From: Enterobacteria phage HK140
Sequence record: NC_019710.1
Direction: 5' to 3' (one strand)
DNA: 40,710 nt
Each line of letters opens with the position of its first letter. Position 1 is the stretch's first letter. A program made the translations under genes and the position numbers. Below are positions 8,522-38,857 of the stretch, piece after piece. The notes beneath the pieces were generated by a model. The model had not been told where the DNA came from. It made no database searches and worked only from the letters and a program-made list of their open reading frames with translations.

Positions 8522-10942
8522 ATGGCTTCCAAATCACTGGGCACGCTGACGATCGACCTGATTGCCAAAGTGGGCGGTTTTGTCTCAGGCCTCTCGCAGG
8601 CTGAGCGAGCTTCACAAAAATGGCGTAAGCAGGTAAAGGAGGATGCCGCTGCCGCTGCAGCTGCCATGACCGGATTCGCAACAGCAGTCGGGGCTGCAGC
8701 CATCGGAGCCGGAGTGGCGGGGTATAACCTGCTCAAAACCACTTCACGTCAGATTACCGAATCAGACCGCTGGGCAAAGTCACTTAACATGTCCACGCAG
8801 TCCCTGTTAGCCTGGCAATATGCTGCAGAAAAAGCAGGTGTTTCCGGCGATCAGATGGCCGATATCTTTAAAGATGTCGGAGACAAAATCGGTGATGCCG
8901 TTCTTAATAAATCTGGTGAGGCGGTCGGTGCGCTGGACGCTCTGGGTTTGTCGGCTAAGAAACTGGCCGGAGAATCTCCCGACAAGCAACTCCTGGCTAT
9001 CAGCGACGCACTGGAGAAAGTTAAGTCCAACGCCGAGAAGACTACCATCCTGGAGAGTCTGGGTAATGACCTGTCAAAGATGCTGCCGCTCCTGGACAAT
9101 GGCAGTGAAAAGCTGCGTCAGTATATGGATGCCGCGAAGAAGTTTGGTGTGGCGCCCGATGACGCAGATATTGAAAAGCTGGTCAGAGTCAACGCCCTGT
9201 TTGAGGATATGGAGACGCAGGTCAACGGCGTCAAAATTGAACTTGCTGCAGGGCTCGCCAGCGTAGATTTGAGTGGGCTCCAGAAGTCTATTGGAGATAT
9301 GGGGGATGTATTTAAAGACCCGGCTGTTATTCAGGGTCTGACTGATCTGGTTGGTGGGGTAGTGGACCTTGCCACCTGGCTGGTAAGGGTAGGAGCCGAG
9401 GCCGGAAAGCTGATAGACCAGTACAAAGGTGGGAGTTCGGTCGGCCTGAATGCCTCCATTCCAGAAATTGAACGGCGCATCAAGAACCTGAATGCAGATC
9501 TCGATGATAAAGGCATACTGGCGAGTTTCAACAGAATAGGTATGGACGTATCCGGTAAGGAGGCCGAAAGGGCTGAGCTCCAGAGGCGACTGGCCTTTTT
9601 GAGAAACTCCCAATCTACTCTACCGAAAATAAAACTGCCCGAGCCAGTCAAAACAAACTATACCCTTGGCGCCGGGGAAACAAACGGTAAGCCGCAAAAA
9701 AATACCTCTGGTCAGAAACTGGATTCAGCGTTTAAAAGCGCTGAGCGCAGTTACATGCGTCAGATTGAGCTGATCGATACCACCGGCAAAAAAACTGCTG
9801 TTGTGACCGAGCAGCAAAAACTGCAGTTCGATATAGCTGACGGCAAGTTGCAGGGGCTTAACGAAACCCAGAAGAAACGACTTGCGTCTCTGGCTCAGGA
9901 AGTTGATCGCCTTAATGCCGTCAAAAAAGCTAATGAAGAAAACGCGAAGGTAGCGGCGTTCGTGGCAAATCTGCAGGAGCAGAACGAGAATGCACGTGCA
10001 GATTTGGGCGTGGATATTCAGGGGGCCGGACTCGGTGACAAGCAGCGTGAAAGGCTGAGGGAAAGGCTGAGTATAGAGCGCAGTTATCTCGATCAGCAGC
10101 GCGATCTGCAAAAGCAGTATCAGTCAGGAGATATCAGCCAGACAGTTTATGACCGCGAAACCCAGGCATTAAAGGATGCACAAGCTGAGAGGCTGGGCAT
10201 CCAGGAGGATTATTACAGTCAAATTGATGCGCTGCAGTCTGACTGGGTGACTGGCGCCAGAGACGGTCTCGCTGACTGGGTAGATGATTCAACTAACTAT
10301 GCGACGCTGGCGGCGGACGCTATGAAAAGCGCGCTTTCCGGTATCAGCAGCAATATCGTCGACATGCTCAACGGCAATAAAGCGAGCTGGAAAGACTGGG
10401 GTGTCAGTGTTCTGAAAATCATCGAACAGGTGATGGTTAACATGATGATCGCCAATGCAGCCAGCTCGATAGGCTCATTGTTCGGTGGTGCCGCATCGTC
10501 TTCCGCCAGCAGCGGTACTGCGATTCAGTCCTACGGGGCGAGCCTGCAATTCAACGCCAAAGGCGGCGTTTACTCTTCTGCCGATCTCAGTCAGTACAGT
10601 AACTCTGTCGTCAGCTCTCCAACACTGTTTGCCTTTGCCAAAGGGGCCGGATTGATGGGGGAGGCTGGGCCGGAGGCTATTATGCCACTGACCCGCGCCG
10701 CTGACGGATCGCTGGGCGTGCGTGCTATGGGAATCTCAGGCTTAACACCGGGTGGTAGTAGTGCTCCTCAGGTCAGTATTCAGATTGATGGCAATGGGAA
10801 TACCCAGACTCAGGCTAGCGGTGGATATGAGCAATTCGGGCGGGAGGTAGGTAGTTTTGTTGATCGGCGATACCGCGAGTTGATAGGCCGTGACCTTTCA
10901 CCCGGTGGCGCGGTCTGGAATCTGGCAAAAGGAGGGCGGTGA
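8522..10942 (+). CDS. H: Tail tape measure protein
   Basis: 806 aa, coiled-coil rich, downstream of G/GT. Confidence 0.9.
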   Translation: MASKSLGTLTIDLIAKVGGFVSGLSQAERASQKWRKQVKEDAAAAAAAMTGFATAVGAAAIGAGVAGYNLLKTTSRQITESDRWAKSLNMSTQSLLAWQYAAEKAGVSGDQMADIFKDVGDKIGDAVLNKSGEAVGALDALGLSAKKLAGESPDKQLLAISDALEKVKSNAEKTTILESLGNDLSKMLPLLDNGSEKLRQYMDAAKKFGVAPDDADIEKLVRVNALFEDMETQVNGVKIELAAGLASVDLSGLQKSIGDMGDVFKDPAVIQGLTDLVGGVVDLATWLVRVGAEAGKLIDQYKGGSSVGLNASIPEIERRIKNLNADLDDKGILASFNRIGMDVSGKEAERAELQRRLAFLRNSQSTLPKIKLPEPVKTNYTLGAGETNGKPQKNTSGQKLDSAFKSAERSYMRQIELIDTTGKKTAVVTEQQKLQFDIADGKLQGLNETQKKRLASLAQEVDRLNAVKKANEENAKVAAFVANLQEQNENARADLGVDIQGAGLGDKQRERLRERLSIERSYLDQQRDLQKQYQSGDISQTVYDRETQALKDAQAERLGIQEDYYSQIDALQSDWVTGARDGLADWVDDSTNYATLAADAMKSALSGISSNIVDMLNGNKASWKDWGVSVLKIIEQVMVNMMIANAASSIGSLFGGAASSSASSGTAIQSYGASLQFNAKGGVYSSADLSQYSNSVVSSPTLFAFAKGAGLMGEAGPEAIMPLTRAADGSLGVRAMGISGLTPGGSSAPQVSIQIDGNGNTQTQASGGYEQFGREVGSFVDRRYRELIGRDLSPGGAVWNLAKGGR

Positions 10943-11280
10943 TGGCTATAGAAACATTCAGCTGGTGTCCGCGCCCGAACGCGGAGCAGGAAGTGACATT
11001 CCGACGGCGCACCGCGCAGTTCGGTGACGGATATCAGCAGGTTTCCGGCGACGGGATTAATCCCCGCTCGCAGAAATGGACTCTCCAGTTTACCGGTACC
11101 GAAACGTATATCGGGGCGATTAAAGACTTTCTCGATCGCCATGCGGGCGTGACGGCGTTTCAGTGGCGCCCGCCGCTTGAGCCTCTCGGGCTTTACCGCT
11201 GCGACACCTACACACCAACGCCACTTGGTGCCGGGTTATTTAATCTTTCTGCAACTTTTGAACAGGCCTACAAACCATGA
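10939..11280 (+). CDS. M: Minor tail protein M
   Basis: 113 aa at the lambda M position; overlapping stop and start. Confidence 0.8.
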   Translation: MMAIETFSWCPRPNAEQEVTFRRRTAQFGDGYQQVSGDGINPRSQKWTLQFTGTETYIGAIKDFLDRHAGVTAFQWRPPLEPLGLYRCDTYTPTPLGAGLFNLSATFEQAYKP

Positions 11281-12032
11281 GTCTTAACGCAGATTTTCAG
11301 AAGCTCGAACCTGGCGATGTGGTCAGGCTTTTCGAAGTGGATGGCACGGCATTTGGTACAGGTGATGTGCTGCGATTTCACAGCTACAGTCTTGCGCACT
11401 CTGAAGCCGAAATTATCGCTGCTGGCGGTGATGAAAATAAACTGCCAGCAAAATCTATCTGGTGGCAGGGTGAGGAGTATAAAGCGTGGCCATGCCAGAT
11501 TGAGGGGATCGAAGCTTCAACCTCGGGAAGTAGTGCCCAGCCAAAACTTTCGGTTGCTAACCTCGACAGTTCGATCACCGCGCTTTGCCTGGCTTACGAC
11601 GATATGCTGCAGGCGAAGGTGACGATACATGACACCCTTGGTAAGTATCTCGATGCGAGAAACTTCACCGGAGGCAATCCGACAGCCGATCCGACCCAGG
11701 AGAAGCTGAAGGTTTTCTACATCGATGCAAAGAGCAGTGAAAACAATGAAGTTGTTGAGTTCACACTATCCAGCCCTATGGATCTGCAGGGGCTGATGAT
11801 ACCTACCCGCCAGCTTCATTCTCTGTGCACATGGTGCATCCGGAACAAGTACCGAACCGGCGACGGCTGCGACTATGCAGGTACGCGCTATTTCGACAAA
11901 AACAACAACCAGGTAAGCGATCCGTCACTGGATGAATGCAACGGAACGCTGACGGCCTGCAAACTTCGGTTCGGTGAAAACAACGAACTCTCGTTTGGTG
12001 GGTTCCCGGGTACGTCGCTGATCAGGAGTTGA
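11277..12032 (+). CDS. L: Minor tail protein L
   Basis: 251 aa with a Cys cluster (CTWCIRNKYRTGDGCDYAG...C) typical of lambda L. Confidence 0.85.
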   Translation: MSLNADFQKLEPGDVVRLFEVDGTAFGTGDVLRFHSYSLAHSEAEIIAAGGDENKLPAKSIWWQGEEYKAWPCQIEGIEASTSGSSAQPKLSVANLDSSITALCLAYDDMLQAKVTIHDTLGKYLDARNFTGGNPTADPTQEKLKVFYIDAKSSENNEVVEFTLSSPMDLQGLMIPTRQLHSLCTWCIRNKYRTGDGCDYAGTRYFDKNNNQVSDPSLDECNGTLTACKLRFGENNELSFGGFPGTSLIRS

Positions 12033-12033
12033 T

Positions 12034-12744
12034 ATGCGTCAGAAAACCATCGATGCGATTATGGCGCATGCTGCAGCTGAATATCCTCGTGAGTGTTGCG
12101 GCGTGGTGGCGCAAAAGAGCCGGGTAGAGAAATATTTTCCATGTAGTAACCTCGCTACCGAGCCGACAGAACATTTTCACCTGTCGCCAGAAGACTATGC
12201 AGCTGCTGAGGACTGGGGTACGGTGATCGCCATCGTTCACAGTCACCCTGACGCCACTACGCAGCCGAGCGAACTGGATAAAGCGCAATGCGACGCAACG
12301 CTTTTACCCTGGCATATTGTGAGCTGGCCGGAGGGGGATTTACGCACCATCCAGCCGCGCGGAGAACTGCCACTGCTGGAGCGTCCGTTTGTGCTTGGAC
12401 ACTTCGACTGCTGGGGGCTGGTAATGAGCTATTTCCGGCAAACGCATGGTATCGAGCTCCACGATTACCGGGTGGATTATCCCTGGTGGGAAAACGCCTA
12501 TCCGGACAATTTTTATCAGGATTGCTGGTATGAATGCGGATTCAGGGAGTTTGACGGCCCGCCTCAGGAAGGGGACCTCGTCATCATGCAGGTGCAGGCC
12601 GATAAGTGGAATCATGCCGGGATTTTACTGGAGGGTAACATGCTGCTGCACCACCTGTACGGACATCTGAGCCAGCGCGTGCCGTATGGTGGCTACTGGC
12701 AGGAAAGGACGATGAAGATTCTACGTTACAAATCTCTGTGCTAA
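12034..12744 (+). CDS. K: Tail assembly protein K (JAB/MPN plus NlpC/P60 type)
   Basis: 236 aa; HSHP motif (IVHSHPD) and a Cys/His region; lambda K position. Confidence 0.85.
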   Translation: MRQKTIDAIMAHAAAEYPRECCGVVAQKSRVEKYFPCSNLATEPTEHFHLSPEDYAAAEDWGTVIAIVHSHPDATTQPSELDKAQCDATLLPWHIVSWPEGDLRTIQPRGELPLLERPFVLGHFDCWGLVMSYFRQTHGIELHDYRVDYPWWENAYPDNFYQDCWYECGFREFDGPPQEGDLVIMQVQADKWNHAGILLEGNMLLHHLYGHLSQRVPYGGYWQERTMKILRYKSLC

Positions 12745-12773
12745 CCTTTTGCAAAACCAAAGGGGATAGGGAT

Positions 12774-13115
12774 ATGAAAAAAACATTATTGACACTTTCT
12801 TTGATAATCATGGCTGGTTGTTCGAGTATGCAGGATCTCCGGAAGGAACCAGCGTCAAATACTTTTCAATCGAAGAAACAAATTGACGCAGTAGCTGAAT
12901 GCATACTCTCTGGCTGGCAAGAAGAAAGCCAAAAATATGGAAGCGTTTTTATTCAGCCTTATGACGGTGGTAAAACTGTATTTACACAATCTCAACTTGA
13001 GATGGTTGATTTAATATCGGACGGCGGAATTACCAAGATTGAATTCCGTCATCAAGGTGGGCTATTTGCTTATCGAATAAACAGCCGGATTAAAGTAATA
13101 GAACGCTGTATCTAA
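12774..13115 (+). CDS. Lipoprotein moron between K and I
   Basis: 113 aa starting MKKTLLTLSLIIMAGCSS (signal peptide plus lipobox Cys); RBS AGGGGATAGGG; its own terminator follows at 13125-13148. Confidence 0.6.
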   Translation: MKKTLLTLSLIIMAGCSSMQDLRKEPASNTFQSKKQIDAVAECILSGWQEESQKYGSVFIQPYDGGKTVFTQSQLEMVDLISDGGITKIEFRHQGGLFAYRINSRIKVIERCI

Positions 13116-13124
13116 CCAAGACTT

Positions 13125-13148
13125 AACCCGCTTCGGCGGGTTTTTTTA
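13125..13148 (+). terminator. Intrinsic terminator
   Basis: Hairpin CCCGC-ttcg-GCGGG followed by TTTTTTT. Confidence 0.75.
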
Positions 13149-13158
13149 TGGTGAGAAT

Positions 13159-13767
13159 ATGAAAGAAGTAATGACAACAATTCAGCTCGGCGGAGTGTTA
13201 GGAAAGACATTCGGTAGAACCCATCAACGACTGATAGCGCGAACTGGTGAAGCTGCTATTGCTTTAAGTAAAACATTGCCCGGTTTCGAAAGTTTCATGA
13301 TCAGCAGTAAACGTCGCGGATTAACTTTCGCGGTGTTCAAAGGGAAAAGAAATATTGCCGCAGATGAGATGGGTTTTCCCTCTGAAGGCGATGTAGTAAG
13401 GATTATGCCTGTAATTATCGGTAGTAAACGCGCTGGTCTTTTGCAGACAATCCTGGGGGCCGTGCTTATTACTGCTGCTGTATTGACTGGCCCTGGCGGT
13501 ATTGGCGCTGCTTTCGCTGCTGGTGGATTGACGGGGTTTGCTGCTGCCACTGGCGCCTCGTTGGTCCTCGGTGGGGTTATTCAGCTTCTTTCACCGCAGC
13601 CATCAGGCATAGCCAGTAAACAAAGCGCAGATAACCGTGCATCGTATGCGTTTGGCGGGGTAACCAACACTGCAGCGCAAGGCTACCCGGTGCCTCTGCT
13701 TTATGGTAAGCGTCGAATCGGCGGAGCGATTATTTCTGCCGGAATTTATGTCGAAGATCAGCAGTAG
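13159..13767 (+). CDS. I: Tail assembly protein I
   Basis: 202 aa with a Gly/Ala-rich C-terminal half; position between K and J. Confidence 0.8.
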   Translation: MKEVMTTIQLGGVLGKTFGRTHQRLIARTGEAAIALSKTLPGFESFMISSKRRGLTFAVFKGKRNIAADEMGFPSEGDVVRIMPVIIGSKRAGLLQTILGAVLITAAVLTGPGGIGAAFAAGGLTGFAAATGASLVLGGVIQLLSPQPSGIASKQSADNRASYAFGGVTNTAAQGYPVPLLYGKRRIGGAIISAGIYVEDQQ

Positions 13768-13786
13768 ATAACTAACCTTTTTTCTG

Positions 13787-13809
13787 GCCACCTTCGGGTG
13801 GCTTTTTTA
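13787..13809 (+). terminator. Intrinsic terminator
   Basis: Hairpin GCCACC-ttcg-GGTGGC followed by TTTTTT. Confidence 0.7.
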
Positions 13810-13819
13810 TGGGCGCAAT

Positions 13820-16800
13820 ATGGCTACAGATAAAGTGTTAAAAGGCCGCAAGGGCGGCAGCTCAAGTTCCCGAACTCCTACCGAACAGCCTGATGATCTG
13901 CAATCTGTAGCGAAGGCAAAAATCCTCGTTGCGCTTGGGGAAGGTGAGTTTGCAGGGCAGCTCACCGGCAAAGATATCTACCTGGACGGAACAGCGCTGG
14001 AGAATGCTGACGGCTCCCAAAACTTCAGCGGGGTAACGTGGGAGTTTCGCGCGGGAACTCAGGCGCAAAAATATATTCAGGGTATTCCCGGTACCGAAAA
14101 CGAGATCAGCGTAGGAACTGAGGTATCAAGTGCCACAGCCTGGACGCGCACGTTTACCAATACGCAGCTTTCAGCAGTTCGCCTGCGTCTTAAATGGCCC
14201 TCGCTTTTCAAACAGGAAGACGACGGCGATCTGGTGGGTTACTCGGTCAATTATGCGATTGACCTACAGACGGACGGCGGCACATGGCAGACGGTACTCA
14301 ATACCAGCGTGACCGGTAAAACGACCTCAGGTTATGAGCGCAGCCACCGTATCGATTTACCGCAGGCTGGCAGCACCTGGACAATACGTCTGCGTAAGAT
14401 TACCTCTGACGCCAACAGCGCGAAGATCGGCGACACGATGATGCTGCAGAGCTTCACCGAGGTGATTGACGCCAAACTGCGCTACCCGAACACCGCGCTG
14501 CTCTACGTCGAATTCGACTCAAGCCAGTTCAACGGCTCTATTCCTCAAATTTCATGCGAACCGCGCGGCCGCGTTATCCGCGTTCCAGATACCTACGACC
14601 CTGAAACCCGCACTTATAGCGGTACATGGACCGGTGCGTTTAAGTGGGCATGGACGGATAACCCTGCGTGGATTTTTTACGACCTGGTTGTTTCTGACCG
14701 GTTCGGCCTTGGGCACCGTTTGACCGCTGCGAATATTGATAAATGGACGCTTTATCAGGTTGCTCAGTATTGTGATCAGATGGTACCAGACGGCAAAGGG
14801 GGCAATGGTACAGAACCACGTTATACCTGCAACGTGTACATTCAGGACCGGAACGACGCCTACACAGTCCTGCGTGATTTTGCCGCTATCTTCCGTGGCA
14901 TGACCTACTGGGGCGGGGATCAGATTGTGGCCCTGGCTGACATGCCGCGCGATGTTGATTACAGCTATACGCGCGCTAACGTTGTTGGCGGTCGCTTCAC
15001 CTATTCGAGCAGCACCACGAAAAGCCGCTACACCACAGCGCTGGTTTCATGGTCAGACCCGGGTAACGCTTATGCCGACGCGATGGAGCCGGTATTTGAG
15101 CAGGCGCTGGTGGCGCGGTACGGCTTCAATCAGCTGGAAATGACAGCCATCGGCTGCACCAGGCAGTCAGAGGCGAACCGAAAGGGGCGCTGGGGTATTC
15201 TCACCAATAACAAGGATCGCGTTGTTTCGTTTGATGTCGGGCTGGACGGAAACATTCCGCAGCCGGGCTACATCATCGCCGTGGCAGACGAGCTGCTTTC
15301 CGGAAAGGTTATGGGCGGCCGCATCAGCGCCGTTAACGGTCGCGTTATCAAACTTGACCGCGTAGCTGATGCAGCACCAGGTGATCGCCTTATTCTCAAC
15401 CTTCCCTCCGGAGCGTCGCAGAGCAGGACCATTCAGGCCGTGAACGGGGAATCAGTCACAGTCACCACGGCATACAGTGAGACGCCACAGGCCGAAGCTG
15501 TTTGGGTGGTTGAATCTGACGAGCTTTACGCGCAGCAGTATCGTGTTGTCAGCGTTTCCGATAACAATGATGGCACTTTCTCGATTACCGGCGCATGGCA
15601 CGACCCGGATAAATATGCCTGTATCGATACCGGAGCCATCATTGACCAACGGCCGGTGAGCGTGATCCCGCCGGGCAACCAGTCGCCGCCTGCGAATATC
15701 GTGATCAGCTCGTTTTCCGTGGTTCAGCAAAATATCAGCGTCGAAACAATGCGCGTGAGCTGGGACCAGGCGCAGAACGCTATCGCCTATGAAGCGCAAT
15801 GGCGCCGCAACGACGGGAACTGGGTTAACGTGCCGCGCACCTCCACCACGTCATTCGACGTCCCGGGGATTTATGCCGGGCGCTACCTGGTGCGGGTGCG
15901 CGCAATCAATGCCGCAGAAATTTCATCCGGATGGGGCTATTCAGAAGAGAAAACGCTGACGGGTAAAGTGGGCAATCCACCGAAGCCGGTTGGCTTTATC
16001 GCCTCTGAAAACGTGGTGTTCGGTATCGAGCTGAACTGGGGATTCCCGGCGAATACCGACGACACGCTGAAGACGGAAATTCAGTACAGCCTGACCGGGA
16101 GCGAAGATGATGCCATTCTTCTGAGCGATGTTCCCTATCCGCAGCGCAAGTATCAGCAGATGGGCCTGAAGGCGGGGCAAATTTTCTGGTACCGGGCGCA
16201 GCTGGTGGACAGGACAGGCAATGAGTCGGGTTATACCGACTGGGTACGTGGACAGGCCAGTATCGATGTGTCGGATATCACCGATGTTATCCTGGAGGAC
16301 ATTAAAGAATCGGACACGTTCAAGGAACTGATCGAAAGCGCAGTAGACAGCAACGAAAAAATTGCTGGTATGGCTGACGATATCAGACAGAACGCTGACG
16401 ATCTGGAGCAACAGGCGCTGGCCATCAAGGAAAACGCCGATGGGCTCGCCCAGGCCGAGGTGAAGATTGACGAAATCTCTGTCTCGATGGATGGCATGAC
16501 GGGAGGCGTTAAAAACTCCTCTATCGCGGTTATTCAGAACAGCCTCGCGCAGGTCACCAGCCGTCGATCCCAGACAGCCACCAACGCCGGGAACAGCGCC
16601 AGCATCGACCGTATCGATACCACCATTGCAGATACCAGCCAGGCGGTTGCCCGTGCGCTGGTTACGCTTGATGCTTCTGCCGGTGGTAATGTCTCAAACG
16701 CGACCGATCTCACCGAAACCCTTGCTGATTTCACGCAGGCCTCGGCCACGAAAATCAACTCCCTGACGGTTACGGTAAACGGCCAGACAGCGGCTATTAA

Positions 16801-17275
16801 CCAGACCGCGCAGGCGGTGGCTGATGTGAACGGTAACCTCAGCGCGATGTACAACATCAAGGTTGGTGTCTCCAGCAACGGGCAGTATTACGCCGCGGGG
16901 ATGGGTATCGGCGTGGAGAATACGCCATCCGGCATGCAGTCACAGGTAATCTTCCTGGCAGACCGTTTCGCCGTGACTACTATGGTCGGCGGGACTGTAA
17001 CACTGCCGTTCGTTATCCAGAATGGCCAGGCCATTATCAGGGATACAGTCATTGGCGACGGGACCATAAGCAATGCAAAAATTGGCAATTACATCCAGTC
17101 GAACAATTATGTTGCCGGCTCTGTTGGCTGGAAACTGGATAAGTCCGGGACGTTTGAGAACTACGGTTCGACAGCTGGGGAGGGAGCCATGAAGCAGACC
17201 AACCAGACAATCAGCGTCAAGGATGACAACAACGTTCTGAGAGTGCAGTTTGGCCGATTAACGGGGGTGTTCTGA
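13820..17275 (+). CDS. J: Host specificity protein J (central tail fibre)
   Basis: 1151 aa, the largest ORF, following I. Confidence 0.9.
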   Translation: MATDKVLKGRKGGSSSSRTPTEQPDDLQSVAKAKILVALGEGEFAGQLTGKDIYLDGTALENADGSQNFSGVTWEFRAGTQAQKYIQGIPGTENEISVGTEVSSATAWTRTFTNTQLSAVRLRLKWPSLFKQEDDGDLVGYSVNYAIDLQTDGGTWQTVLNTSVTGKTTSGYERSHRIDLPQAGSTWTIRLRKITSDANSAKIGDTMMLQSFTEVIDAKLRYPNTALLYVEFDSSQFNGSIPQISCEPRGRVIRVPDTYDPETRTYSGTWTGAFKWAWTDNPAWIFYDLVVSDRFGLGHRLTAANIDKWTLYQVAQYCDQMVPDGKGGNGTEPRYTCNVYIQDRNDAYTVLRDFAAIFRGMTYWGGDQIVALADMPRDVDYSYTRANVVGGRFTYSSSTTKSRYTTALVSWSDPGNAYADAMEPVFEQALVARYGFNQLEMTAIGCTRQSEANRKGRWGILTNNKDRVVSFDVGLDGNIPQPGYIIAVADELLSGKVMGGRISAVNGRVIKLDRVADAAPGDRLILNLPSGASQSRTIQAVNGESVTVTTAYSETPQAEAVWVVESDELYAQQYRVVSVSDNNDGTFSITGAWHDPDKYACIDTGAIIDQRPVSVIPPGNQSPPANIVISSFSVVQQNISVETMRVSWDQAQNAIAYEAQWRRNDGNWVNVPRTSTTSFDVPGIYAGRYLVRVRAINAAEISSGWGYSEEKTLTGKVGNPPKPVGFIASENVVFGIELNWGFPANTDDTLKTEIQYSLTGSEDDAILLSDVPYPQRKYQQMGLKAGQIFWYRAQLVDRTGNESGYTDWVRGQASIDVSDITDVILEDIKESDTFKELIESAVDSNEKIAGMADDIRQNADDLEQQALAIKENADGLAQAEVKIDEISVSMDGMTGGVKNSSIAVIQNSLAQVTSRRSQTATNAGNSASIDRIDTTIADTSQAVARALVTLDASAGGNVSNATDLTETLADFTQASATKINSLTVTVNGQTAAINQTAQAVADVNGNLSAMYNIKVGVSSNGQYYAAGMGIGVENTPSGMQSQVIFLADRFAVTTMVGGTVTLPFVIQNGQAIIRDTVIGDGTISNAKIGNYIQSNNYVAGSVGWKLDKSGTFENYGSTAGEGAMKQTNQTISVKDDNNVLRVQFGRLTGVF

Positions 17276-17276
17276 T

Positions 17277-17579
17277 ATGGCTTATGGAATACAGACCTGG
17301 GATGCTTCAGGAAAACCCAACAACTATGGCATCAAACCCGTTTCCGTCGTTGGACGTATACAACTTGCCGCCGGACAAAACTCCGGCAGCTGGTCTTTCA
17401 CTGTACCCTCAGGAATGAAGGTCGGTTTTGCGCTCTCACTTGATGAAGGAGGTAACAGCGTAGGGAGGAGCATTGTCGCGTCAGGGAACACAATAACCGT
17501 AACCGCAGCCTCTTCTGTGGGCCTGGGTAATTACCCGGCCTCTAAATGTGAGGTGGTCGTTTTCATGGAGAAAGCATAA
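17277..17579 (+). CDS. Hypothetical tail-associated protein with WDASGK motif
   Basis: 100 aa; start 2 nt after the J stop; shares the motif WDASGK with the next ORF. Confidence 0.4.
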   Translation: MAYGIQTWDASGKPNNYGIKPVSVVGRIQLAAGQNSGSWSFTVPSGMKVGFALSLDEGGNSVGRSIVASGNTITVTAASSVGLGNYPASKCEVVVFMEKA

Positions 17580-18253
17580 TGGCCGAATTTGGCGCGATGA
17601 TATTAATGGATAACGGGAATCCCTTTGTAACGCCACAATCAACGCCTTTCTGTCTTTACGGGAAGTATACCTTCAATTCATCCGCGAATGGCAGTTCTCA
17701 GCAGGTTGCTCAAAATATCGCTTTAAACGCTGATTACCCAGTGATGGTTTTTATCAAGACCACCAATACAGCACAGCCCACTCCGGTTATGTCTTACAGG
17801 AACGGCGGTAATGTGTATGTTGCTGGTGTTAATCCCTACAACCAAAGTTTCACTTTAACGTCGTACGTTTTTGCCATATTCCCGCAGATATTACCGAAAT
17901 GGGGTTTGGCAATATGGGATGCGAGCGGAAAGCTTGTGTTAACTAATGAGTCCCGTGTGCTATCAGACCTGCAGACGGTTGGCACGCCTGGTGCAAACGG
18001 CGGGATAAATATTGACCAGACGCTGAGCGGGTCATGGGCCGTTGCACCTGCTCAGTTGGGTCAGACCATCATTGTGAATAATTCAACCCAGCCTCCGACT
18101 ATCTACACGATAAATGCTTATTCTTCATGCAGGTTTGACGGGGCCAATACGAGGATAAACGCAGGGGGGACCTCCACTGGGGCAGGTTCACCTGGAGGGG
18201 GAACGAATACTGGCATTTCATTAACCGCCATAAATACAGCGGCCTATGATTGA
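17579..18253 (+). CDS. Hypothetical tail-associated protein with WDASGK motif
   Basis: 224 aa; start overlaps the upstream stop; Gly-rich C-terminus. Confidence 0.4.
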   Translation: MAEFGAMILMDNGNPFVTPQSTPFCLYGKYTFNSSANGSSQQVAQNIALNADYPVMVFIKTTNTAQPTPVMSYRNGGNVYVAGVNPYNQSFTLTSYVFAIFPQILPKWGLAIWDASGKLVLTNESRVLSDLQTVGTPGANGGINIDQTLSGSWAVAPAQLGQTIIVNNSTQPPTIYTINAYSSCRFDGANTRINAGGTSTGAGSPGGGTNTGISLTAINTAAYD

Positions 18254-18364: not shown

Positions 18365-18598
18365 ATGAGAAAACTGATTATCTGCATGGCAGGCGCTGTC
18401 ATGCTTACAGGATGCGCTGGCGTAATTGAGAAACAGGAACCAGTTTGCAGCGGCACTGCAATCGTTGGCGGTCAGGAAACTACGGTTCAGATTTACGGTG
18501 TGCGTAAACAAAACAACCAGACGCAGTACCGGGCTGGATATCCTTTCAGCTGGCGCTGGGTAAGTGCGAATACATTTACCGAAACAACCTGCAAATAA
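18365..18598 (+). CDS. Small lipoprotein, candidate Cor-like superinfection exclusion protein
   Basis: 77 aa starting MRKLIICMAGAVMLTGC (lipobox); sits downstream of the J region where cor is found in phi80/N15-type phages; terminator follows. Confidence 0.5.
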   Translation: MRKLIICMAGAVMLTGCAGVIEKQEPVCSGTAIVGGQETTVQIYGVRKQNNQTQYRAGYPFSWRWVSANTFTETTCK

Positions 18599-18643: not shown

Positions 18644-18658
18644 TTGCCTGGAGAAAAT

Positions 18659-20032
18659 ATGCTTTATAACACCGGCACCATCGCCATTAATGGAAATACC
18701 GCCACCGGGAAGGGTACAAACTGGACGGCACCGGCCAGCCAGGTTCGCGCTGGCCAGACAATTATCGTGATGTCTAACCCGGTGCAACTGTTCCAGATTT
18801 CATCCGTGAACAGCGCCACGTCAATGACGGTTACGCCTGCCGCTTCCCCGGCGCTGAGCGGCCAGAAATACGCCATTCTGGTGTCAGACATTATCTCCGT
18901 GGACGGACTGGCCCAGGCAATGTCGCAGCTCATCAAAGAGTATGACGAGAACATTGGCGCGTGGGAGACGTTCGCCACTACCTCAGCAAACCAGACCATC
19001 ACCGTTACCATCAACGGGACCACCGTAACCATCCCTGGCATCGGTAAACTGGCACAGAAAGGGAGCAACGGTGCGGTTACTGTCGCAGACGGCGGAACCG
19101 GGGCAACAACGGCAGAAGGGAGTCGCACAAACCTCGGTTTAGGAGACAGCGCCACAAGGAACGTCGGAACGGCTGCCGGAACTGTGGCGGCCGGGGATGA
19201 TTCGCGATTCGAAAAGATTGCCAAATTAGGAAGTGCAGCAACAAAAGATACTGGTGAGGGTGAAGGAAATGTGCTGATAACGGGGTCATTTGGTGTGGGT
19301 TCTAAAATTTTACCAGTCATCAGCGATATTTGGGATAAAAGCCAAGGCTCGCGCTTCTGCAACGTTACCCCTGCGACATTGGGAGGTCCTGGTATTTACG
19401 GCTCAGGCATCCGGCTGTCTGATCGAAACATCGGAAGTGGAGCAACCTATGCCGCACAGCAATCCTTTTTTGCTCTGATTTTTAGCGGCAAAGTCATTCA
19501 ATTTATGGGGATGACTGATGGCGTCGACACCGGGTGGATGAAGATTTACCACACAGGGAACACGACCAGGGCATCTGATGGCACGCTGAAGGCCGCCTCC
19601 CCGATTGTACGGTTGTTTGGGAATGGCAAATGCCAGCTTAACGACGAATCAGAGGGGTGCACTGTAACCCGCTTGGCTACGGGAAAATATCTGGTTGAAG
19701 GGTGTGAGGGGCTTAACTCTGATGCCGCCTGGGGCGGTATTGATGGCGGTTTCGACATCCCAACCGACCGCAACAAACAACCGCTCATCTGGCTGGACTA
19801 CGAAGTAAACGCTGATGGTTCTGTGCTGATTCAAACCTACCACCGCACACATCCTTCGGCACCTGCTTATGCCAGAAATGAACGTGACGGGATCAATGAC
19901 GGAGAGCCTATTGATATCCCGTCAGATCAGTTCGTCAGCGTTCGAGTAGAAATGCCTGCTAACAGCATCTGGAATCAGAAACAGAAAGCAATAGAAGAAG
20001 CTGCGAAAAGCGCGTCCGAAGAGGTTCAATAA
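18659..20032 (+). CDS. Side tail fibre protein
   Basis: 458 aa from the ATG at 18659 (RBS GGAG); Gly/Thr/Ala-rich with motif DGGTGATTAEGSRTNLGLGDSATRNVG. Confidence 0.75.
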   Translation: MLYNTGTIAINGNTATGKGTNWTAPASQVRAGQTIIVMSNPVQLFQISSVNSATSMTVTPAASPALSGQKYAILVSDIISVDGLAQAMSQLIKEYDENIGAWETFATTSANQTITVTINGTTVTIPGIGKLAQKGSNGAVTVADGGTGATTAEGSRTNLGLGDSATRNVGTAAGTVAAGDDSRFEKIAKLGSAATKDTGEGEGNVLITGSFGVGSKILPVISDIWDKSQGSRFCNVTPATLGGPGIYGSGIRLSDRNIGSGATYAAQQSFFALIFSGKVIQFMGMTDGVDTGWMKIYHTGNTTRASDGTLKAASPIVRLFGNGKCQLNDESEGCTVTRLATGKYLVEGCEGLNSDAAWGGIDGGFDIPTDRNKQPLIWLDYEVNADGSVLIQTYHRTHPSAPAYARNERDGINDGEPIDIPSDQFVSVRVEMPANSIWNQKQKAIEEAAKSASEEVQ

Positions 20033-20078: not shown

Positions 20079-20345
20079 TCACACTCCATTCTGGAGAACG
20101 GTCGGGAACTCAGAAACCAGCCACATATCGGACTCTTCAAACATTTCCTCCAGCATGCGGTTCAGTTTTTCCCGATCACTTTTGCTGGCATCGCTATTTA
20201 AACCGTTCGCCTGCATTGGCTTCACCTTCACTTCGGCATCGGGGAAAATCTGGTGCACCCGCTTCTTCAACTCGGCCAGTATGATCTCTCTGGCCCCTTT
20301 GAGCCCCTCAACATTACGCTTGTCATAAACTAGTTCAACGAACAT
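20079..20345 (-). CDS. dinI: DinI-like damage-inducible protein
   Basis: Aligns with E. coli DinI along its length (IFPDAEVKV, DREKLNRMLEEMFEESDMWLVSE); alternative ATG at 20351. Confidence 0.8.
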   Translation of the reverse strand: MFVELVYDKRNVEGLKGAREIILAELKKRVHQIFPDAEVKVKPMQANGLNSDASKSDREKLNRMLEEMFEESDMWLVSEFPTVLQNGV

Positions 20346-20387
20346 AACCATCCCTCTCGCTTACTTGATCTCTGCAAATAAAAATAC

Positions 20388-20430: not shown

Positions 20431-20670
20431 ATGCCTCGTAAATCAGATATTCATGCAGCTTTTTTAGCCTCTATAGAACAGAATCAAAAGGGTTACCTTT
20501 GTCTCAATACAAATAAATTCATCAATAAGTTGCGCGAGAAGAGCTGGCATTTCAGCCAGGCGGATGCAAATACATGGATCGAGCGATACCAGCCGGACTT
20601 CGCCGATAAGACGACAAACGGCAGCCAGAACCGGTACTGGATCCTGCGTAACATGGGGAGGGTTTTCTAA
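20431..20670 (+). CDS. Small protein upstream of umuD', positionally ImpC-like
   Basis: 79 aa from the ATG at 20431 (RBS GAGGG); stop overlaps the umuD' start (TAATG). Confidence 0.4.
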   Translation: MPRKSDIHAAFLASIEQNQKGYLCLNTNKFINKLREKSWHFSQADANTWIERYQPDFADKTTNGSQNRYWILRNMGRVF

Positions 20671-21059
20671 TGGGCTTTCCTTCGCCGGCTACGGATTACG
20701 TTGAACAGCGTATATCGCTTGACGAGCGCATCATCACCAGGCCAGCGGCTACGTACTTTATGCGGGCCGGTGCAACGCATTACCGAGAAGGTATCCTCAA
20801 TGGTGCTTTGCTGGTTGTCGACGCGTCAATGTCTCCATGTGATGGTTCATTGCTGGTTTGCACAGATAGCGGTGAGTTTAGGATTAAGCGGTATCGCACA
20901 CACCCGCGGCCACACCTGGAAAACCTTGAGAACGGTAAACGGGAGAGTTTGCTAGATAAGGATGAGGTATCCGACACTTCGCGTCCGGTATTTGGGGTGA
21001 TCACGTATATCATCAACGACGCGCGGTCTGGTGAGTTTGATGACTACCCGCTGAAGTGA
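20670..21059 (+). CDS. UmuD'-like protein (S24 family), natively lacking the N-terminal cleavage segment
   Basis: 129 aa starting MGFPSPATDYVEQRI, matching UmuD from Gly25 (GFPSPAADYVEQRI); the position of the UmuD Ser nucleophile aligns to Thr/His. Confidence 0.8.
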   Translation: MGFPSPATDYVEQRISLDERIITRPAATYFMRAGATHYREGILNGALLVVDASMSPCDGSLLVCTDSGEFRIKRYRTHPRPHLENLENGKRESLLDKDEVSDTSRPVFGVITYIINDARSGEFDDYPLK

Positions 21060-21372: not shown

Positions 21373-22551
21373 ATGGCTATAAGCGACACAAAACTGCGTA
21401 CTATTTATGGTAAACCATATTCGGGCCCACAAGAAGTGGCTGATGCCGATGGCCTCAGCGTACGAATTTCACCGAAGGGGGTCATTCAGTTCCAGTACCG
21501 TTATCGCTGGCATGGCAAGCCTAATCGACTTGGGCTTGGTCGATACCCATCCCTGTCTTTGAAGGATGCCAGACAGATCACTGCTGACTTGCGAAATCTC
21601 TATTTCTCAGGAACGGATCCACGCACCTATTTTGAAGAGAAGGTGGAGAACTCCATGACGGTCGCCCAGTGTCTCGACTACTGGTTCGACAACTACGTCT
21701 CTACAACTCTCAGAGAAAAGACCCAGGCACTTTACCGATCAACGGTTATGAAGCGCATGCATGACGCCTTTCCTAATCGTCCGGCATCTTCTATCACGGT
21801 TAAGCAATGGGTTGACCTGCTTACCGAAGAAGAAAGAGATAATCCACGCCGAGCAAGGCAGGTGCTAAGTCAACTAAGATCAGCAATAAGTTGGTGCATG
21901 CGGCGTCAGTTGATAGATAGTTGCGCAATTATGAGCATCCAACCAAGGGACTTCGGCTCCCGCGCTGAGGTAGGGGATCGGGTACTGTCGTATCACGAAC
22001 TGGCTAAGATTTGGCTTGCTATTGAAAGAAGCCGTGCGTCTACGTCAAATAAGCTACTTCATCAGATGCTTATGCTGTGGGGGGCGAGGCTCTCAGAGCT
22101 TAGGCTGGCAAAAAAGACAGAATTTGACCTGCTGGAAAACGTATGGACCGTACCGAAAGAGCATAGCAAGATGGGTAATGTTATCCGCCGTCCAATCTTC
22201 GAACAAATTAAGCCTTTCCTCGAAAAGGCCATGACAACGTACAATGATGTTCTTTTCCCTGGAGAAGACATAAACAAACCGATCAGCATCGCTGCAGCCA
22301 ACCGATTCGTAAATAGAATAAGGGGAGGGATGGATCTAGGTTACTGGCGAACACACGATTTCAGAAGAACGCTTGTTACACGTCTGTCCGAGATGAATGT
22401 CGAGCCTCATGTTACTGAGCGAATGCTCGGTCATGAACTTGGCGGGATAATGTCCGTGTACAATAAACACGACTGGATAGAGGCTCAGCGCAAAGCGTAT
22501 GAGCTTCACGCTGATAAATTGTTCTGGCACATCAGGAGCATTTCTGATTAA
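21373..22551 (+). CDS. int: Tyrosine integrase (P4-like, with N-terminal arm-binding domain)
   Basis: 392 aa; C-terminal catalytic region with HDFRRT and a terminal Tyr-containing segment (SVYNKHD). Confidence 0.9.
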   Translation: MAISDTKLRTIYGKPYSGPQEVADADGLSVRISPKGVIQFQYRYRWHGKPNRLGLGRYPSLSLKDARQITADLRNLYFSGTDPRTYFEEKVENSMTVAQCLDYWFDNYVSTTLREKTQALYRSTVMKRMHDAFPNRPASSITVKQWVDLLTEEERDNPRRARQVLSQLRSAISWCMRRQLIDSCAIMSIQPRDFGSRAEVGDRVLSYHELAKIWLAIERSRASTSNKLLHQMLMLWGARLSELRLAKKTEFDLLENVWTVPKEHSKMGNVIRRPIFEQIKPFLEKAMTTYNDVLFPGEDINKPISIAAANRFVNRIRGGMDLGYWRTHDFRRTLVTRLSEMNVEPHVTERMLGHELGGIMSVYNKHDWIEAQRKAYELHADKLFWHIRSISD

Positions 22552-36835: not shown

Positions 36836-37020
36836 ACGCCACAATTCAAACGATACCAGAGCTTCTTATCCAGACACGAGGCAATCAGACCGAAGTGGCG
36901 AGGATGCTTTCCTGCGCAAGAGGAACAGTGCTCAAGTACAACCGAGACAGCAAAGGCGAGCGTCACGTAATAGTTAACGGCGTCCTGATGGTCAAACAGG
37001 GCAAGAGGGGAAGACCATGA
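36832..37020 (+). CDS. ninH: NinH
   Basis: 62 aa; GNQTEVARMLSCARGTVLKY matches the lambda NinH HTH region. Confidence 0.7.
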   Translation: MNATIQTIPELLIQTRGNQTEVARMLSCARGTVLKYNRDSKGERHVIVNGVLMVKQGKRGRP

Positions 37021-37640
37021 GACTCGAAAGCGTAGCTAAATTTCATTCGCCAAAAAGCCCGATGATGAGCGACTCACCACGGGCTACGGCTTCTGACTCT
37101 CTTTCCGGTACTGATGTGATGGCTGCTATGGGGATGGCGCAATCACAAGCCGGATTCGGAATGGCTGCATTCTGTGGCAAGCACGAACTCAGCCAGAACG
37201 ACAAACAAAAGGCTATCAACTATCTGATGCAATTTGCACACAAGGTATCGGGGAAATACCGTGGTGTGGCAAAGCTCGAAGGAAATACTAAGGCAAAGGT
37301 ACTGCAAGTGCTCGCAACATTCGCTTATGCGGATTATTGCCGTAGTGCCGCGACGCCGGGCGCAAGATGCAGAGATTGTCACGGTACTGGCCGGGCCGTT
37401 GATATTGCCAAAACAGAACGGTGGGGGAGAGTTGTCGAGAAAGAGTGCGGAAGATGCAAAGGCGTCGGCTATTCAAGGATGCCAGCAAGCGCAACATATC
37501 GCGCTGTGACGATGCTAATCCCAAACCTTACTCAACCCACCTGGTCACGCACTGTTAAGCCGCTGTATGACGCTCTGGTGGTTCAATGCCACAAGGAAGA
37601 GTCAATCGCAGACAACATTTTGAACGCGGTCACACGTTAG
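37017..37640 (+). CDS. Q: Late antiterminator Q
   Basis: 207 aa; appears near-identical to lambda Q from memory; Zn-finger CRDCHGTG...CGRCKG. Confidence 0.9.
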   Translation: MRLESVAKFHSPKSPMMSDSPRATASDSLSGTDVMAAMGMAQSQAGFGMAAFCGKHELSQNDKQKAINYLMQFAHKVSGKYRGVAKLEGNTKAKVLQVLATFAYADYCRSAATPGARCRDCHGTGRAVDIAKTERWGRVVEKECGRCKGVGYSRMPASATYRAVTMLIPNLTQPTWSRTVKPLYDALVVQCHKEESIADNILNAVTR

Positions 37641-38073: not shown

Positions 38074-38397
38074 ATGAAGATGCCAGAAAAAAATGACCTG
38101 TTAGCCGCCATTCTCGCGGCAAAGGAACAAGGCATCGGGGCAATCCTTGCGTTTGCAATGGCGTACCTTCGCGGCAGATATAATGGCGGTGCGTTTACAA
38201 AAACAGTAATCGACGCAACGATGTGCGCCATTATCGCCTGGTTCATTCGTGACCTTCTCGACTTCGCCGGACTAAGTAGCAATCTCGCTTATATAACGAG
38301 CGTGTTCATCGGCTACATCGGTACTGACTCGATTGGTTCGCTTATCAAACGCTTCGCTGCTAAAAAAGCCGGAGTAGAAGATGGTGGAAATCAATAA
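38074..38397 (+). CDS. S: Holin S (dual-start motif MKM)
   Basis: 107 aa matching lambda S ([40 protein letters not shown]...). Confidence 0.9.
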
Positions 38398-38857
38398 TCA
38401 ACGTAAGGCGTTCCTCGATATGCTGGCGTGGTCAGAGGGAACAGATAACGGACGTCAGAAAACCAGAAATCATGGTTATGACGTCATTGTAGGAGGAGAG
38501 CTATTCACTGATTACTCCGATCACCCTCGCAAACTTGTCACGCTAAACCCAAAACTCAAATCAACAGCAGCCGGACGCTACCAGCTTCTTTCCCGTTGGT
38601 GGGATGCCTACCGCAAGCAGCTTGGGCTGAAAGACTTCTCTCCGAAAAGCCAGGACGCTGTTGCACTACAGCAGATTAAAGAGCGTGGCGCTTTACCGAT
38701 GATTGATCGCGGTGATATTCGTCAGGCTATCGACCGTTGCAGCAATATCTGGGCTTCACTGCCGGGCGCTGGTTATGGTCAGTTCGAGCATAAGGCTGAC
38801 AACCTGATTGCAAAATTCAAAGAAGCAGGCGGAACGGTCAGAGAGATTGAGGTATGA
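38381..38857 (+). CDS. R: Endolysin R (lytic transglycosylase)
   Basis: 158 aa matching lambda R ([39 protein letters not shown]...). Confidence 0.9.

What the first reader, a model, noticed from the sequence alone, without database searches (positions are those of the whole stretch)
12774..13148. Lipoprotein moron inserted between tail genes K and I
In lambda, K and I are adjacent. Here a 113-aa lipoprotein (signal peptide plus lipobox MAGC) with its own strong terminator is inserted between them. Morons in tail operons commonly encode lysogenic-conversion or superinfection-exclusion factors, for example outer-membrane proteins that block receptors.
Basis: partly seen in the sequence, partly recalled or inferred. 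Interest (0 to 1): 0.6.

Follow-up and report, generated by a model that had tools for sequence, protein, structure and literature searches.

The report
Prophage lipoprotein cassette between tail genes
A small self-contained accessory gene for an outer-membrane lipoprotein of unknown function sits between two tail genes of this lambda-like phage, in a slot long known to hold such add-on genes, so it is a real but fairly ordinary example of a known kind.

Summary
ORF 12774-13115 encodes a 113-aa prolipoprotein (lipobox MAGC, Cys16). A C(UUCG)G hairpin plus a T-run (13125-13147) follows it. It lies between K (12034-12744) and I (13159-13767), which overlap in lambda.

It behaves as a moron:
- Composition: GC is 0.39 and GC3 0.33, against about 0.54 and 0.6 in the flanking tail genes.
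- Slot: HK022 and HK97 carry an unrelated moron (gp20) at the same place.
- Mobility: homologues occupy the K-I slot in all 78 IMG/VR hits and in Kosakonia, Photorhabdus, Acerihabitans and Pseudomonas prophages. They occupy the chaperone-tape-measure slot in two other phages.
- Promoter: an extended -10-like motif (TGnTAnnnT) lies 24-31 nt upstream of the start in 30 of 38 distinct upstream regions.

The gene is under purifying selection (dN/dS about 0.13) and is identical to a 'hypothetical protein' of phage mEpX2 (phrog_914, function unknown).

Function is not established. No Pfam, NCBIfam, PADLOC or PDB relative was found, and the predicted alpha+beta fold is generic. The window also carries phi80-type Cor, and the lipoprotein does not co-vary with the J receptor-binding end, so a blocker of the phage's own receptor is unlikely. 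Distant chromosomal cousins in Bordetella are coupled to an M23 peptidase gene.

My best guess is a prophage-expressed envelope protein that excludes incoming phages. Verdict: new member of a known kind, modest interest.

The parts
12722..13344 (+). Exchanged mosaic module: last 22 nt of K, the lipoprotein cassette, and the first ~186 nt of I
   Evidence: blastn against HK022 and HK97 is 95-99% identical up to 12722 and again from 13345, with no similarity between. K differs only in its last 5 residues. I residues ~1-90 are about 60% identical and the rest is identical. GC is low across the block. This I N-terminal allele occurs only in mEpX2 among 50,697 phage records.
12739..12747 (+). Extended -10-like promoter element TGCTAACCT, overlapping the K stop codon (TAA 12742-12744), 26 nt upstream of the ATG
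   Evidence: TGnTAnnnT ends 24-31 nt upstream of the start codon in 30 of 38 distinct upstream regions of homologues, including non-homologous contexts (TGCTATCAT, TGCTATGAT, TGTTAATAT, TGCTACCCT). Random 39-nt segments carry it 1.6% of the time. Coordinates. The consensus -35/-10 scan found no promoter, so promoter activity is inferred, not shown.
12761..12766 (+). Shine-Dalgarno-like AGGGGA, 7 nt before the ATG
   Evidence: Read from the sequence. The GGGGATAGGGAT-ATG block recurs in homologues in the K-I slot and in the chaperone-tape-measure slot (L017 GGGAATAGGGATATG, L012 GGGGATTGGGATGTG).
12774..13115 (+). Gene for the 113-aa prolipoprotein. Signal peptide residues 1-15, lipobox MAGC with Cys16 at 12819-12821, mature ~98-aa alpha+beta domain with conserved Cys43 and Cys112
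   Evidence: ORF. phrog_914 E 7e-37. 100% identical to the mEpX2 'hypothetical protein'. Invariant C16, C43, C112. Lipobox in 111/111 members, no Asp at +2, exactly two further Cys in 108/111. AF2 model pLDDT 86.5. dN/dS 0.125.
13125..13147 (+). Intrinsic terminator: 7-bp stem, UUCG loop, T-run
   Evidence: Equivalent hairpin plus T-run follows the homologous gene in L004, L015, L009, L012 and L017.
12034..12744 (+). Tail tip gene K (JAB/MPN + NlpC/P60), the left flank
   Evidence: Pfam PF14464 and PF00877, phrog_30.
13159..13767 (+). Tail assembly gene I, the right flank. Its N-terminal third belongs to the exchanged module
   Evidence: phrog_32 E 6e-70.

Best explanation
Shown, or strongly supported (about 0.9): bases 12739-13147 form a compact accessory cassette (a 'moron') in the K-I junction of an HK022/mEpX2-like lambdoid phage. 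Its parts are an extended -10-type promoter-like element overlapping the K stop codon, a ribosome-binding site, a 113-aa prolipoprotein gene and a strong intrinsic terminator. It entered this genome by homologous recombination within the 3' end of K and the 5' third of I, displacing the unrelated gp20-type moron that HK022 and HK97 carry there.

Inferred from the sequence and from established lipoprotein biology:
- The precursor is exported, lipidated on Cys16 and cleaved by signal peptidase II.
- With Ser at +2 it is sorted by Lol to the inner leaflet of the outer membrane.
- It exposes a ~98-residue alpha+beta domain, probably stabilised by a Cys43-Cys112 disulfide, to the periplasm.

Inferred from lambdoid biology: in a lysogen the cassette is transcribed on its own and stops at its own terminator. 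During lytic growth, RNA polymerase modified by the phage's Q protein (37017-37640) reads through it.

Function is a guess (about 0.35-0.4). I think the protein most likely protects the lysogen, and perhaps the progeny at lysis, from other phages. It would act on the envelope from the periplasmic side, either by jamming an outer-membrane protein or by interfering with an incoming lambda-type tail tip. This action would not be matched to the phage's own receptor-binding domain.
For: Anatomy.

Foreign composition: GC 0.386 and GC3 0.325, against 0.52-0.55 and 0.56-0.64 in H, L, K and J. The gene is 10-17 GC points below its flanks in seven of the eight phage-borne homologues checked, including high-GC Pseudomonas L015.

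Known moron slot with other cargo: HK022 gp20 is annotated 'moron gene product', and HK97 has the same element with a terminator.

Recombination joints.

Mobility:
- K-I slot in 78/78 IMG/VR loci and in Kosakonia, Photorhabdus, Acerihabitans and Pseudomonas prophages.
- Chaperone-tape-measure slot, the HK97 gp15 slot, in L012 and L017.
- Non-tail islands in L013, L016 and L167.

Lipoprotein features.

Real gene under constraint.

Not the spanin: Rz, holin and endolysin are at 38074-39291.

Precedents for exclusion by tail-operon morons and by small phage lipoproteins: HK97 gp15 and Cor (PMC3594210); T5 Llp, a periplasmic outer-membrane lipoprotein that jams FhuA (PMC9586334).
Against: - No experiment and no homology ties the family to any function. 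Pfam, NCBIfam, PADLOC and PDB sequence searches are all negative.
- The promoter is only a conserved motif. The window's copy, TAACCT, matches TATAAT at 3 of 6 positions, and the consensus scan found nothing.
- The counts include related sequences, so they are not independent events.
- The strong purifying selection (dN/dS 0.125) is not what an arms-race protein usually shows.
- The phage already has Cor.
- The gene is rare: 3 of 5,426 complete E. coli genomes.
Confidence: 0.4

Rival explanations
1. Partner or inhibitor of a peptidoglycan endopeptidase. The protein would bind a periplasmic cell-wall peptidase. The target could be a host M23 or NlpC/P60 enzyme, or the NlpC/P60 domain of gpK on an incoming tail tip. 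It would thereby change wall remodelling or block wall penetration.
For: A distant chromosomal subfamily has the same length, lipobox, Cys43/Cys112 equivalents and usually Trp48 (profile E 5e-8). In Bordetella-like genomes it is conserved in the order MoCF_biosynth - lipoprotein - M23 peptidase. The peptidase start overlaps the lipoprotein stop. This holds in four contigs whose outer flanks differ. In the K-I-slot phages the gene lies between K, which carries an NlpC/P60 domain, and I.
Against: The link to the Bordetella subfamily is remote (20-23% identity). Gene neighbourhood in one bacterial family is weak evidence. Phage members in the chaperone-tape-measure slot are not adjacent to K. Even in the K-I slot up to 3.4 kb can separate K from the gene. 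No known peptidase inhibitor appears among the fold matches.
Confidence: 0.15
2. Host-fitness or virulence lipoprotein of the Bor/Iss or TraT type. It would alter serum resistance, adhesion or stress tolerance of the lysogen and have no role in phage exclusion.
For: It is a prophage-borne outer-membrane lipoprotein cassette with its own terminator. Bor and Lom are precedents for such lysogenic-conversion genes (PMC3594210). Purifying selection and long residence fit a housekeeping-like benefit.
Against: There is no similarity to Bor or any other named family. The family occurs in prophages of insect, plant and soil bacteria (Photorhabdus, Acerihabitans, Kosakonia, Pseudomonas, Rosenbergiella). 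That argues against a role specific to mammalian serum.
Confidence: 0.2
3. Cor/Llp-type blocker of the phage's own receptor. It would jam the outer-membrane transporter that J recognises, and might be expressed mainly with the late operon to protect progeny from cell debris.
For: It is a small periplasmic outer-membrane lipoprotein in a tail-gene neighbourhood. Llp works exactly this way, and Cor and Llp disable receptors to protect offspring. Late transcription must pass through the gene in any case.
Against: The window already has phi80-identical Cor. Lipoproteins at least 88% identical to the window's accompany at least four different J C-terminal clusters, and one J cluster pairs with lipoproteins of 36-96% identity. 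Cor co-occurs in only 13 of 66 loci. There is no sequence or fold similarity to Cor or Llp.
Confidence: 0.1
4. Tail structural or assembly component, or the outer-membrane spanin.
For: It sits inside the tail operon, always immediately upstream of I or H. There is a weak phrog_6073 'Rz-like spanin' hit (E 0.008).
Against: It is an exported lipoprotein, whereas tails assemble in the cytoplasm. It is absent from lambda, HK022 and HK97, which have homologous tails. It occupies different slots in different phages. The spanin hit covers only residues 1-22, the signal peptide. The window has its own Rz-type spanin and lysis cassette.
Confidence: 0.03

Closest known systems
HK022 gp20 / HK97 gene 20 moron at the K-I junction (Juhala et al. 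2000 annotation, as carried in NC_002166 and NC_002167)
   Same: Same slot between K and I in closely related tails (flanks 91-97% identical). Same layout: a short spacer after K, a small ORF, then a hairpin plus T-run directly before the I ribosome-binding site.
   Different: The protein is unrelated. gp20 is a 74-aa protein with a hydrophobic N-terminal stretch (phrog_5031), not a lipoprotein. The K 3' end and the I N-terminal allele also differ.
HK97 gp15 moron (superinfection exclusion, inner membrane)
   Same: An accessory cassette inside the tail operon. Two homologues of the window's lipoprotein occupy the chaperone-tape-measure slot, the slot of gp15 in HK97.
   Different: gp15 is described as an inner-membrane protein (PMC3594210), not a lipoprotein. 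Exclusion has been demonstrated for gp15 only. Sequence similarity to gp15 was not tested here.
Cor (phi80, N15, HK022, T1) and Llp (T5) exclusion lipoproteins
   Same: Small phage-encoded lipoproteins. Llp is a periplasmic outer-membrane lipoprotein encoded near tail and receptor-binding genes.
   Different: No sequence or fold similarity. The window encodes a separate genuine Cor at 18365-18598. Cor and Llp are tied to the receptor of their own phage, whereas this family does not track the J C-terminus.
phrog_914 / mEpX2 hypothetical protein XSB41260.1
   Same: The window protein is a member: E 7e-37 over the full length, and 100% identical to the mEpX2 protein.
   Different: Nothing differs. 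The family has no assigned function, no Pfam entry and no literature that I could find.
Bordetella-type chromosomal lipoprotein upstream of an M23 peptidase
   Same: Same size, lipobox and two conserved Cys. Detected with the family profile.
   Different: 20-23% identity. Core-genome context with native GC content, not a mobile cassette. Also uncharacterised.

Membership tests
Moron (Juhala/Hendrix sense; criteria as summarised in PMC3594210) | Extra DNA between genes that are adjacent in related phages | tested here: met
   Lambda K and I overlap. In L017 K and I are also contiguous while the homologue sits elsewhere.
Moron (Juhala/Hendrix sense; criteria as summarised in PMC3594210) | Nucleotide composition different from the surrounding genes | tested here: met
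   GC 0.386 and GC3 0.325, against 0.52-0.55 and 0.56-0.64. The same offset holds in seven of the eight phage-borne homologues checked.
Moron (Juhala/Hendrix sense; criteria as summarised in PMC3594210) | Own transcription terminator | tested here: met
   13125-13147, C(UUCG)G hairpin plus T-run.
Moron (Juhala/Hendrix sense; criteria as summarised in PMC3594210) | Own promoter | tested here: inconclusive
   There is no -35/-10 consensus site. A TGnTAnnnT element is conserved in position in 30/38 upstream regions against 1.6% background. The window copy, TGCTAACCT, is weak.
Moron (Juhala/Hendrix sense; criteria as summarised in PMC3594210) | Expressed from the repressed prophage | not testable with these tools
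   Needs RNA-seq or a reporter assay in a lysogen.
Bacterial lipoprotein (signal peptidase II substrate) | Positively charged n-region, hydrophobic h-region, and a lipobox ending in Cys within the first ~35 residues (PROSITE PS51257 pattern) | tested here: met
   MKK-TLLTLSLII-MAGC16. The pattern is met in 111/111 family members, and the Cys is invariant.
Bacterial lipoprotein (signal peptidase II substrate) | Actual lipidation and cleavage, and outer-membrane location | not testable with these tools
   Ser at +2, and no Asp at +2 in any member, predicts Lol export to the outer membrane. This is a prediction only.
Cor superinfection-exclusion family (phrog_1119) | Sequence membership | tested here: not met
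   The protein hits only phrog_914. The window's true Cor is a different gene.
T5 Llp | Sequence or fold similarity to Llp | tested here: not met
Lambda Bor / Iss | Match to the Pfam or PHROG family | tested here: not met
   No Bor or Iss family appears at E <= 0.1 in Pfam or PHROGs.
Outer-membrane spanin (Rz1-like) | Homology beyond the signal peptide, and pairing with an inner-membrane spanin in the lysis cassette | tested here: not met
   The phrog_6073 hit covers residues 1-22 only (E 0.008). The lysis cassette with an Rz-like spanin lies at 38074-39291.
T6SS immunity periplasmic lipoprotein (NF045617) | Score above the curated cut-off | tested here: not met
   13 bits against a cut-off of 43, E 0.08.
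Known anti-phage defence systems (PADLOC-DB) | Match to any model | tested here: not met
   0 families at E <= 1.

The most novel reading that the evidence does not exclude
The family descends from a cellular lipoprotein that partners an M23 peptidoglycan endopeptidase. Lambda-type prophages of Enterobacterales and Pseudomonas would have captured it as a receptor-independent exclusion factor. Anchored under the outer membrane, it would stop incoming siphovirus tail tips at the cell-wall step, for example by neutralising the gpK NlpC/P60 domain or a host peptidase the tip relies on. That would be a new exclusion mechanism, and it would assign a function to the enigmatic peptidase domain of gpK.
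Probability: 0.08. Interest if true: 0.75.

Novelty: new member of a known kind. Interest (0 to 1): 0.33.

Why it matters
Morons in tail operons are a recognised source of prophage-encoded host benefits, but most are still 'hypothetical'.

This one belongs to a compact, well-delimited family: about 113 aa, an invariant lipobox and two invariant Cys. The family has stayed in lambda-type tail operons from E. coli to Pseudomonas, moves between two moron slots, and carries a recognisable promoter-like signature.

That makes it a clean and cheap candidate for functional testing: one small gene, a known model phage relative (mEpX2), and the E. coli K-12 host. If it excludes phages independently of the receptor it would add a new envelope-level defence. 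If not, it is one more annotated accessory gene.

In itself the finding does not change any current view.

Tried and rejected
Searches that gave nothing:
- Pfam, NCBIfam and PADLOC gave no family.
- The PDB profile search gave only signal-peptide matches.
- Foldseek on the PDB gave a best hit of Flpp3 at E 6e-3. Foldseek on viral structures gave only two weak uncharacterised hits.
- The afdb50 library was unavailable.
- The genome-contig scan with the diverse alignment A2 failed for lack of a conserved stretch. It was rerun with A1.
- The sigma-70 consensus scan found no promoter. It was replaced by a comparative search for extended -10 elements.
- Rfam at E <= 1 gave only sub-threshold isrK and rsmX matches that include the terminator hairpin.
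- Literature searches for mEpX2, phrog_914 and lambdoid lipoprotein morons found nothing on this protein. Tai systems (PMC11364771) lie upstream of the packaging module and are unrelated.

Readings rejected:
- Spanin, structural tail protein and Cor, Llp or Bor membership are rejected for the reasons given in the membership table.
- I considered whether the tight co-inheritance with the N-terminal allele of I implies a functional tie to I. Plain linkage is more likely, because homologues in the chaperone-tape-measure slot lack it.

Full report
**What is there.** The window is a complete lambdoid phage genome. Its left arm is 96-97% identical to Escherichia phages mEpX2 and HK022. The tail-tip genes run as follows:

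| Gene | Coordinates | Evidence |
|---|---|---|
| H | 8522-10942 | |
| M | 10939-11280 | |
| L | 11277-12032 | |
| K | 12034-12744 | JAB + NlpC/P60 domains |
| (small ORF) | 12774-13115 | see below |
| I | 13159-13767 | phrog_32 |
| J | 13820-17275 | |

The ORF at 12774-13115 encodes 113 residues beginning MKKTLLTLSLIIMAGC|SS. A 7-bp hairpin with a UUCG loop and a T-run follows it at 13125-13147. In lambda, K and I overlap.

**It is a real gene for a lipoprotein.**
- The protein matches phrog_914 ('unknown function') over its full length at E 7e-37.
- It is 100% identical to a 'hypothetical protein' of mEpX2.
- An exhaustive HMMER search of 1.84 billion representatives found only 45 clusters, nearly all 108-129 aa.
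- Across 39 diverse members the lipobox Cys16 and two further cysteines (Cys43, Cys112) are invariant. Arg23, Trp48 and Asp79 are nearly invariant.
- All 111 family members of at least 100 aa satisfy the PROSITE-type lipobox pattern. None has Asp at +2, and 108 have exactly two cysteines in the mature part.
- Among close homologues dN/dS has a median of 0.125.
- From established rules of lipoprotein sorting in Enterobacteria, Ser at +2 predicts an outer-membrane, periplasm-facing protein. The two conserved cysteines suggest a disulfide. Both points are inferences.
- AlphaFold2 gives a confident model (pLDDT 86.5) of a two-layer alpha+beta domain.

**It behaves as a moron.**

*Composition.* GC is 0.386 and GC3 0.325, against 0.52-0.55 and 0.56-0.64 in H, L, K and J. 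The homologous gene is 10-17 GC points below its neighbours in seven of the eight phage-borne homologues checked, including a 65-69% GC Pseudomonas prophage.

*Slot.* GenBank records for HK022 and HK97 already annotate a 'moron gene product' (gp20) plus terminator between K and I. gp20 is an unrelated 74-aa protein with a hydrophobic N-terminal stretch (phrog_5031).

*Recombination joints.* Similarity between the window and HK022 or HK97 stops at 12722 and resumes at 13345. As a result:
- K differs only in its last five residues.
- The first ~90 residues of I are a diverged allele.
- The rest of I is identical.

This is cassette exchange by recombination in the flanking genes, not a de novo insertion. 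That I allele is found only in mEpX2 among 50,697 phage records.

*Mobility.* The homologue lies between K and I, always 30-90 nt upstream of I:
- in all 78 IMG/VR loci recovered;
- in prophages of Kosakonia, Photorhabdus and Acerihabitans;
- in two Pseudomonas species at 24-27% identity.

In several of these, 0.8-3.4 kb of other cargo separates it from K. [quoted passage not shown] That is the slot of the HK97 gp15 moron, and in that contig K and I abut. More distant members sit in integrative islands. A gene that hops between slots, and that lambda, HK022 and HK97 lack, is not a tail component.

*Signals.* A hairpin plus T-run follows the gene in most contexts. The simple sigma-70 scan found no promoter. 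A comparative look, however, showed an extended -10-type motif (TGnTAnnnT) ending 24-31 nt before the start codon in 30 of 38 distinct upstream regions. Variants include TGCTATCAT, TGCTATGAT and TGTTAATAT in otherwise unrelated sequence. Random segments carry the motif 1.6% of the time.

In the window the motif is TGCTAACCT at 12739-12747 and overlaps the K stop codon. That may explain why the last codons of K travel with the cassette. The window's copy is weak, and the counts are not phylogenetically independent. I therefore treat the promoter as likely but unproven. Read-through in lytic growth would rely on the phage's Q-type antiterminator (37017-37640). That step rests on established lambdoid biology, not on a test here.

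**What it does.** No evidence assigns a function.
- Pfam, NCBIfam, PADLOC and a PDB profile search are negative beyond the signal peptide.

Three observations constrain the options.

1. The window already encodes a Cor protein identical to that of phi80 (18365-18598). A second blocker of a FhuA-type receptor is therefore not needed.
2. The lipoprotein does not co-vary with the receptor-binding end of J. Proteins at least 88% identical accompany at least four J C-terminal clusters, and one J cluster accompanies lipoproteins of 36-96% identity. Cor is present in only 13 of 66 such loci. A blocker matched to the phage's own receptor, as Cor and Llp are, is therefore unlikely.
3. A distant chromosomal subfamily in Bordetella-like genomes is conserved immediately upstream of an M23 peptidoglycan peptidase gene, overlapping its start. 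In the K-I-slot phages the gene likewise lies just downstream of K, which carries an NlpC/P60 peptidase domain. This hints at a cell-wall connection, but it is thin.

**Ranking of explanations.**

| Reading | Probability |
|---|---|
| Prophage-expressed periplasmic outer-membrane lipoprotein that excludes other phages at the envelope, not matched to its own receptor | about 0.35-0.4 |
| Host-fitness lipoprotein | about 0.2 |
| Peptidoglycan-peptidase partner or inhibitor | about 0.15 |
| Own-receptor blocker | about 0.1 |
| Structural or lysis role | about 0.03 |

The anatomy (a moron cassette encoding a lipoprotein) I hold at about 0.9.

**Comparison with what is known, and novelty.** The kind of element and even the slot are textbook for HK97 and HK022. 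The exact protein is already in GenBank as a hypothetical protein of mEpX2 and in PHROGs as an unnamed family. I found no paper that discusses it. What is added here:
- the family's definition;
- its restriction to lambda-type tail operons across two bacterial orders;
- its use of two different moron slots;
- the conserved promoter-like element;
- the lack of coupling to J or Cor;
- the chromosomal cousins next to an M23 peptidase.

It is rare in E. coli, in 3 of 5,426 complete genomes. I rate it a new member of a known kind, of modest interest. Its main value is as a clean, easily testable candidate.

Noticed in passing
window 18365-18598 (+): A second lipoprotein gene encodes Cor, the FhuA-inactivating exclusion protein. 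It is 100% identical to phi80 and HK225 Cor and 79% to HK022 Cor. It lies between a phrog_425 'membrane associated protein' gene (17579-18253) and the side tail fibre gene (18644-20032). The default 90-aa ORF listing does not show it.
   Followed up: yes
window 13786-13803 (+), between I (stop 13767) and J (start 13820): A second terminator-like hairpin, GGCCACC-TTCG-GGTGGCT plus a T-run, sits in the I-J junction. HK022 and HK97 carry further morons there (gp22, srb/gp23). In the window the slot holds only the terminator, as if the cargo had been lost or never gained.
   Followed up: partly
window 12739-12747 and homologous loci (e.g. L006, L134, L142, L146, L150): The TGnTAnnnT element upstream of the lipoprotein gene overlaps or directly follows the K stop codon in many phages. 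In the window, TGC-TAA is the Cys codon plus stop codon of K. The promoter-like signal and the end of K are therefore fused.
   Followed up: partly
L010, L011, L165, L166 (Bordetella-like chromosomes): A conserved gene trio: MoCF_biosynth, a ~112-aa lipoprotein (distant homologue), and an M23 peptidase with a Peptidase_M23_N domain. The peptidase start overlaps the lipoprotein stop. This suggests an uncharacterised lipoprotein partner of a cell-wall endopeptidase.
   Followed up: partly
L007-L009 (Pseudomonas kurunegalensis prophage), L126, L148, L149: In these prophages the K-I slot has grown to 2-3.4 kb, with several small ORFs between K and the lipoprotein gene. In L007 and L008 an IS element and loss of downstream tail genes suggest a decaying prophage that still keeps the lipoprotein gene.
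   Followed up: no
window 20079-20351 (-) and 20670-21059 (+): DinI-like and UmuD-like genes lie between the side tail fibre gene and the integrase gene (21373-22551). These are further accessory genes of the prophage.
   Followed up: no
L003 1697-2018 (HK97 K-I junction): The HK97 copy of the gp20 moron ORF has an in-frame stop relative to HK022 gp20, so it looks like a pseudogene. This may be why NC_002167 annotates only the terminator there.
   Followed up: no
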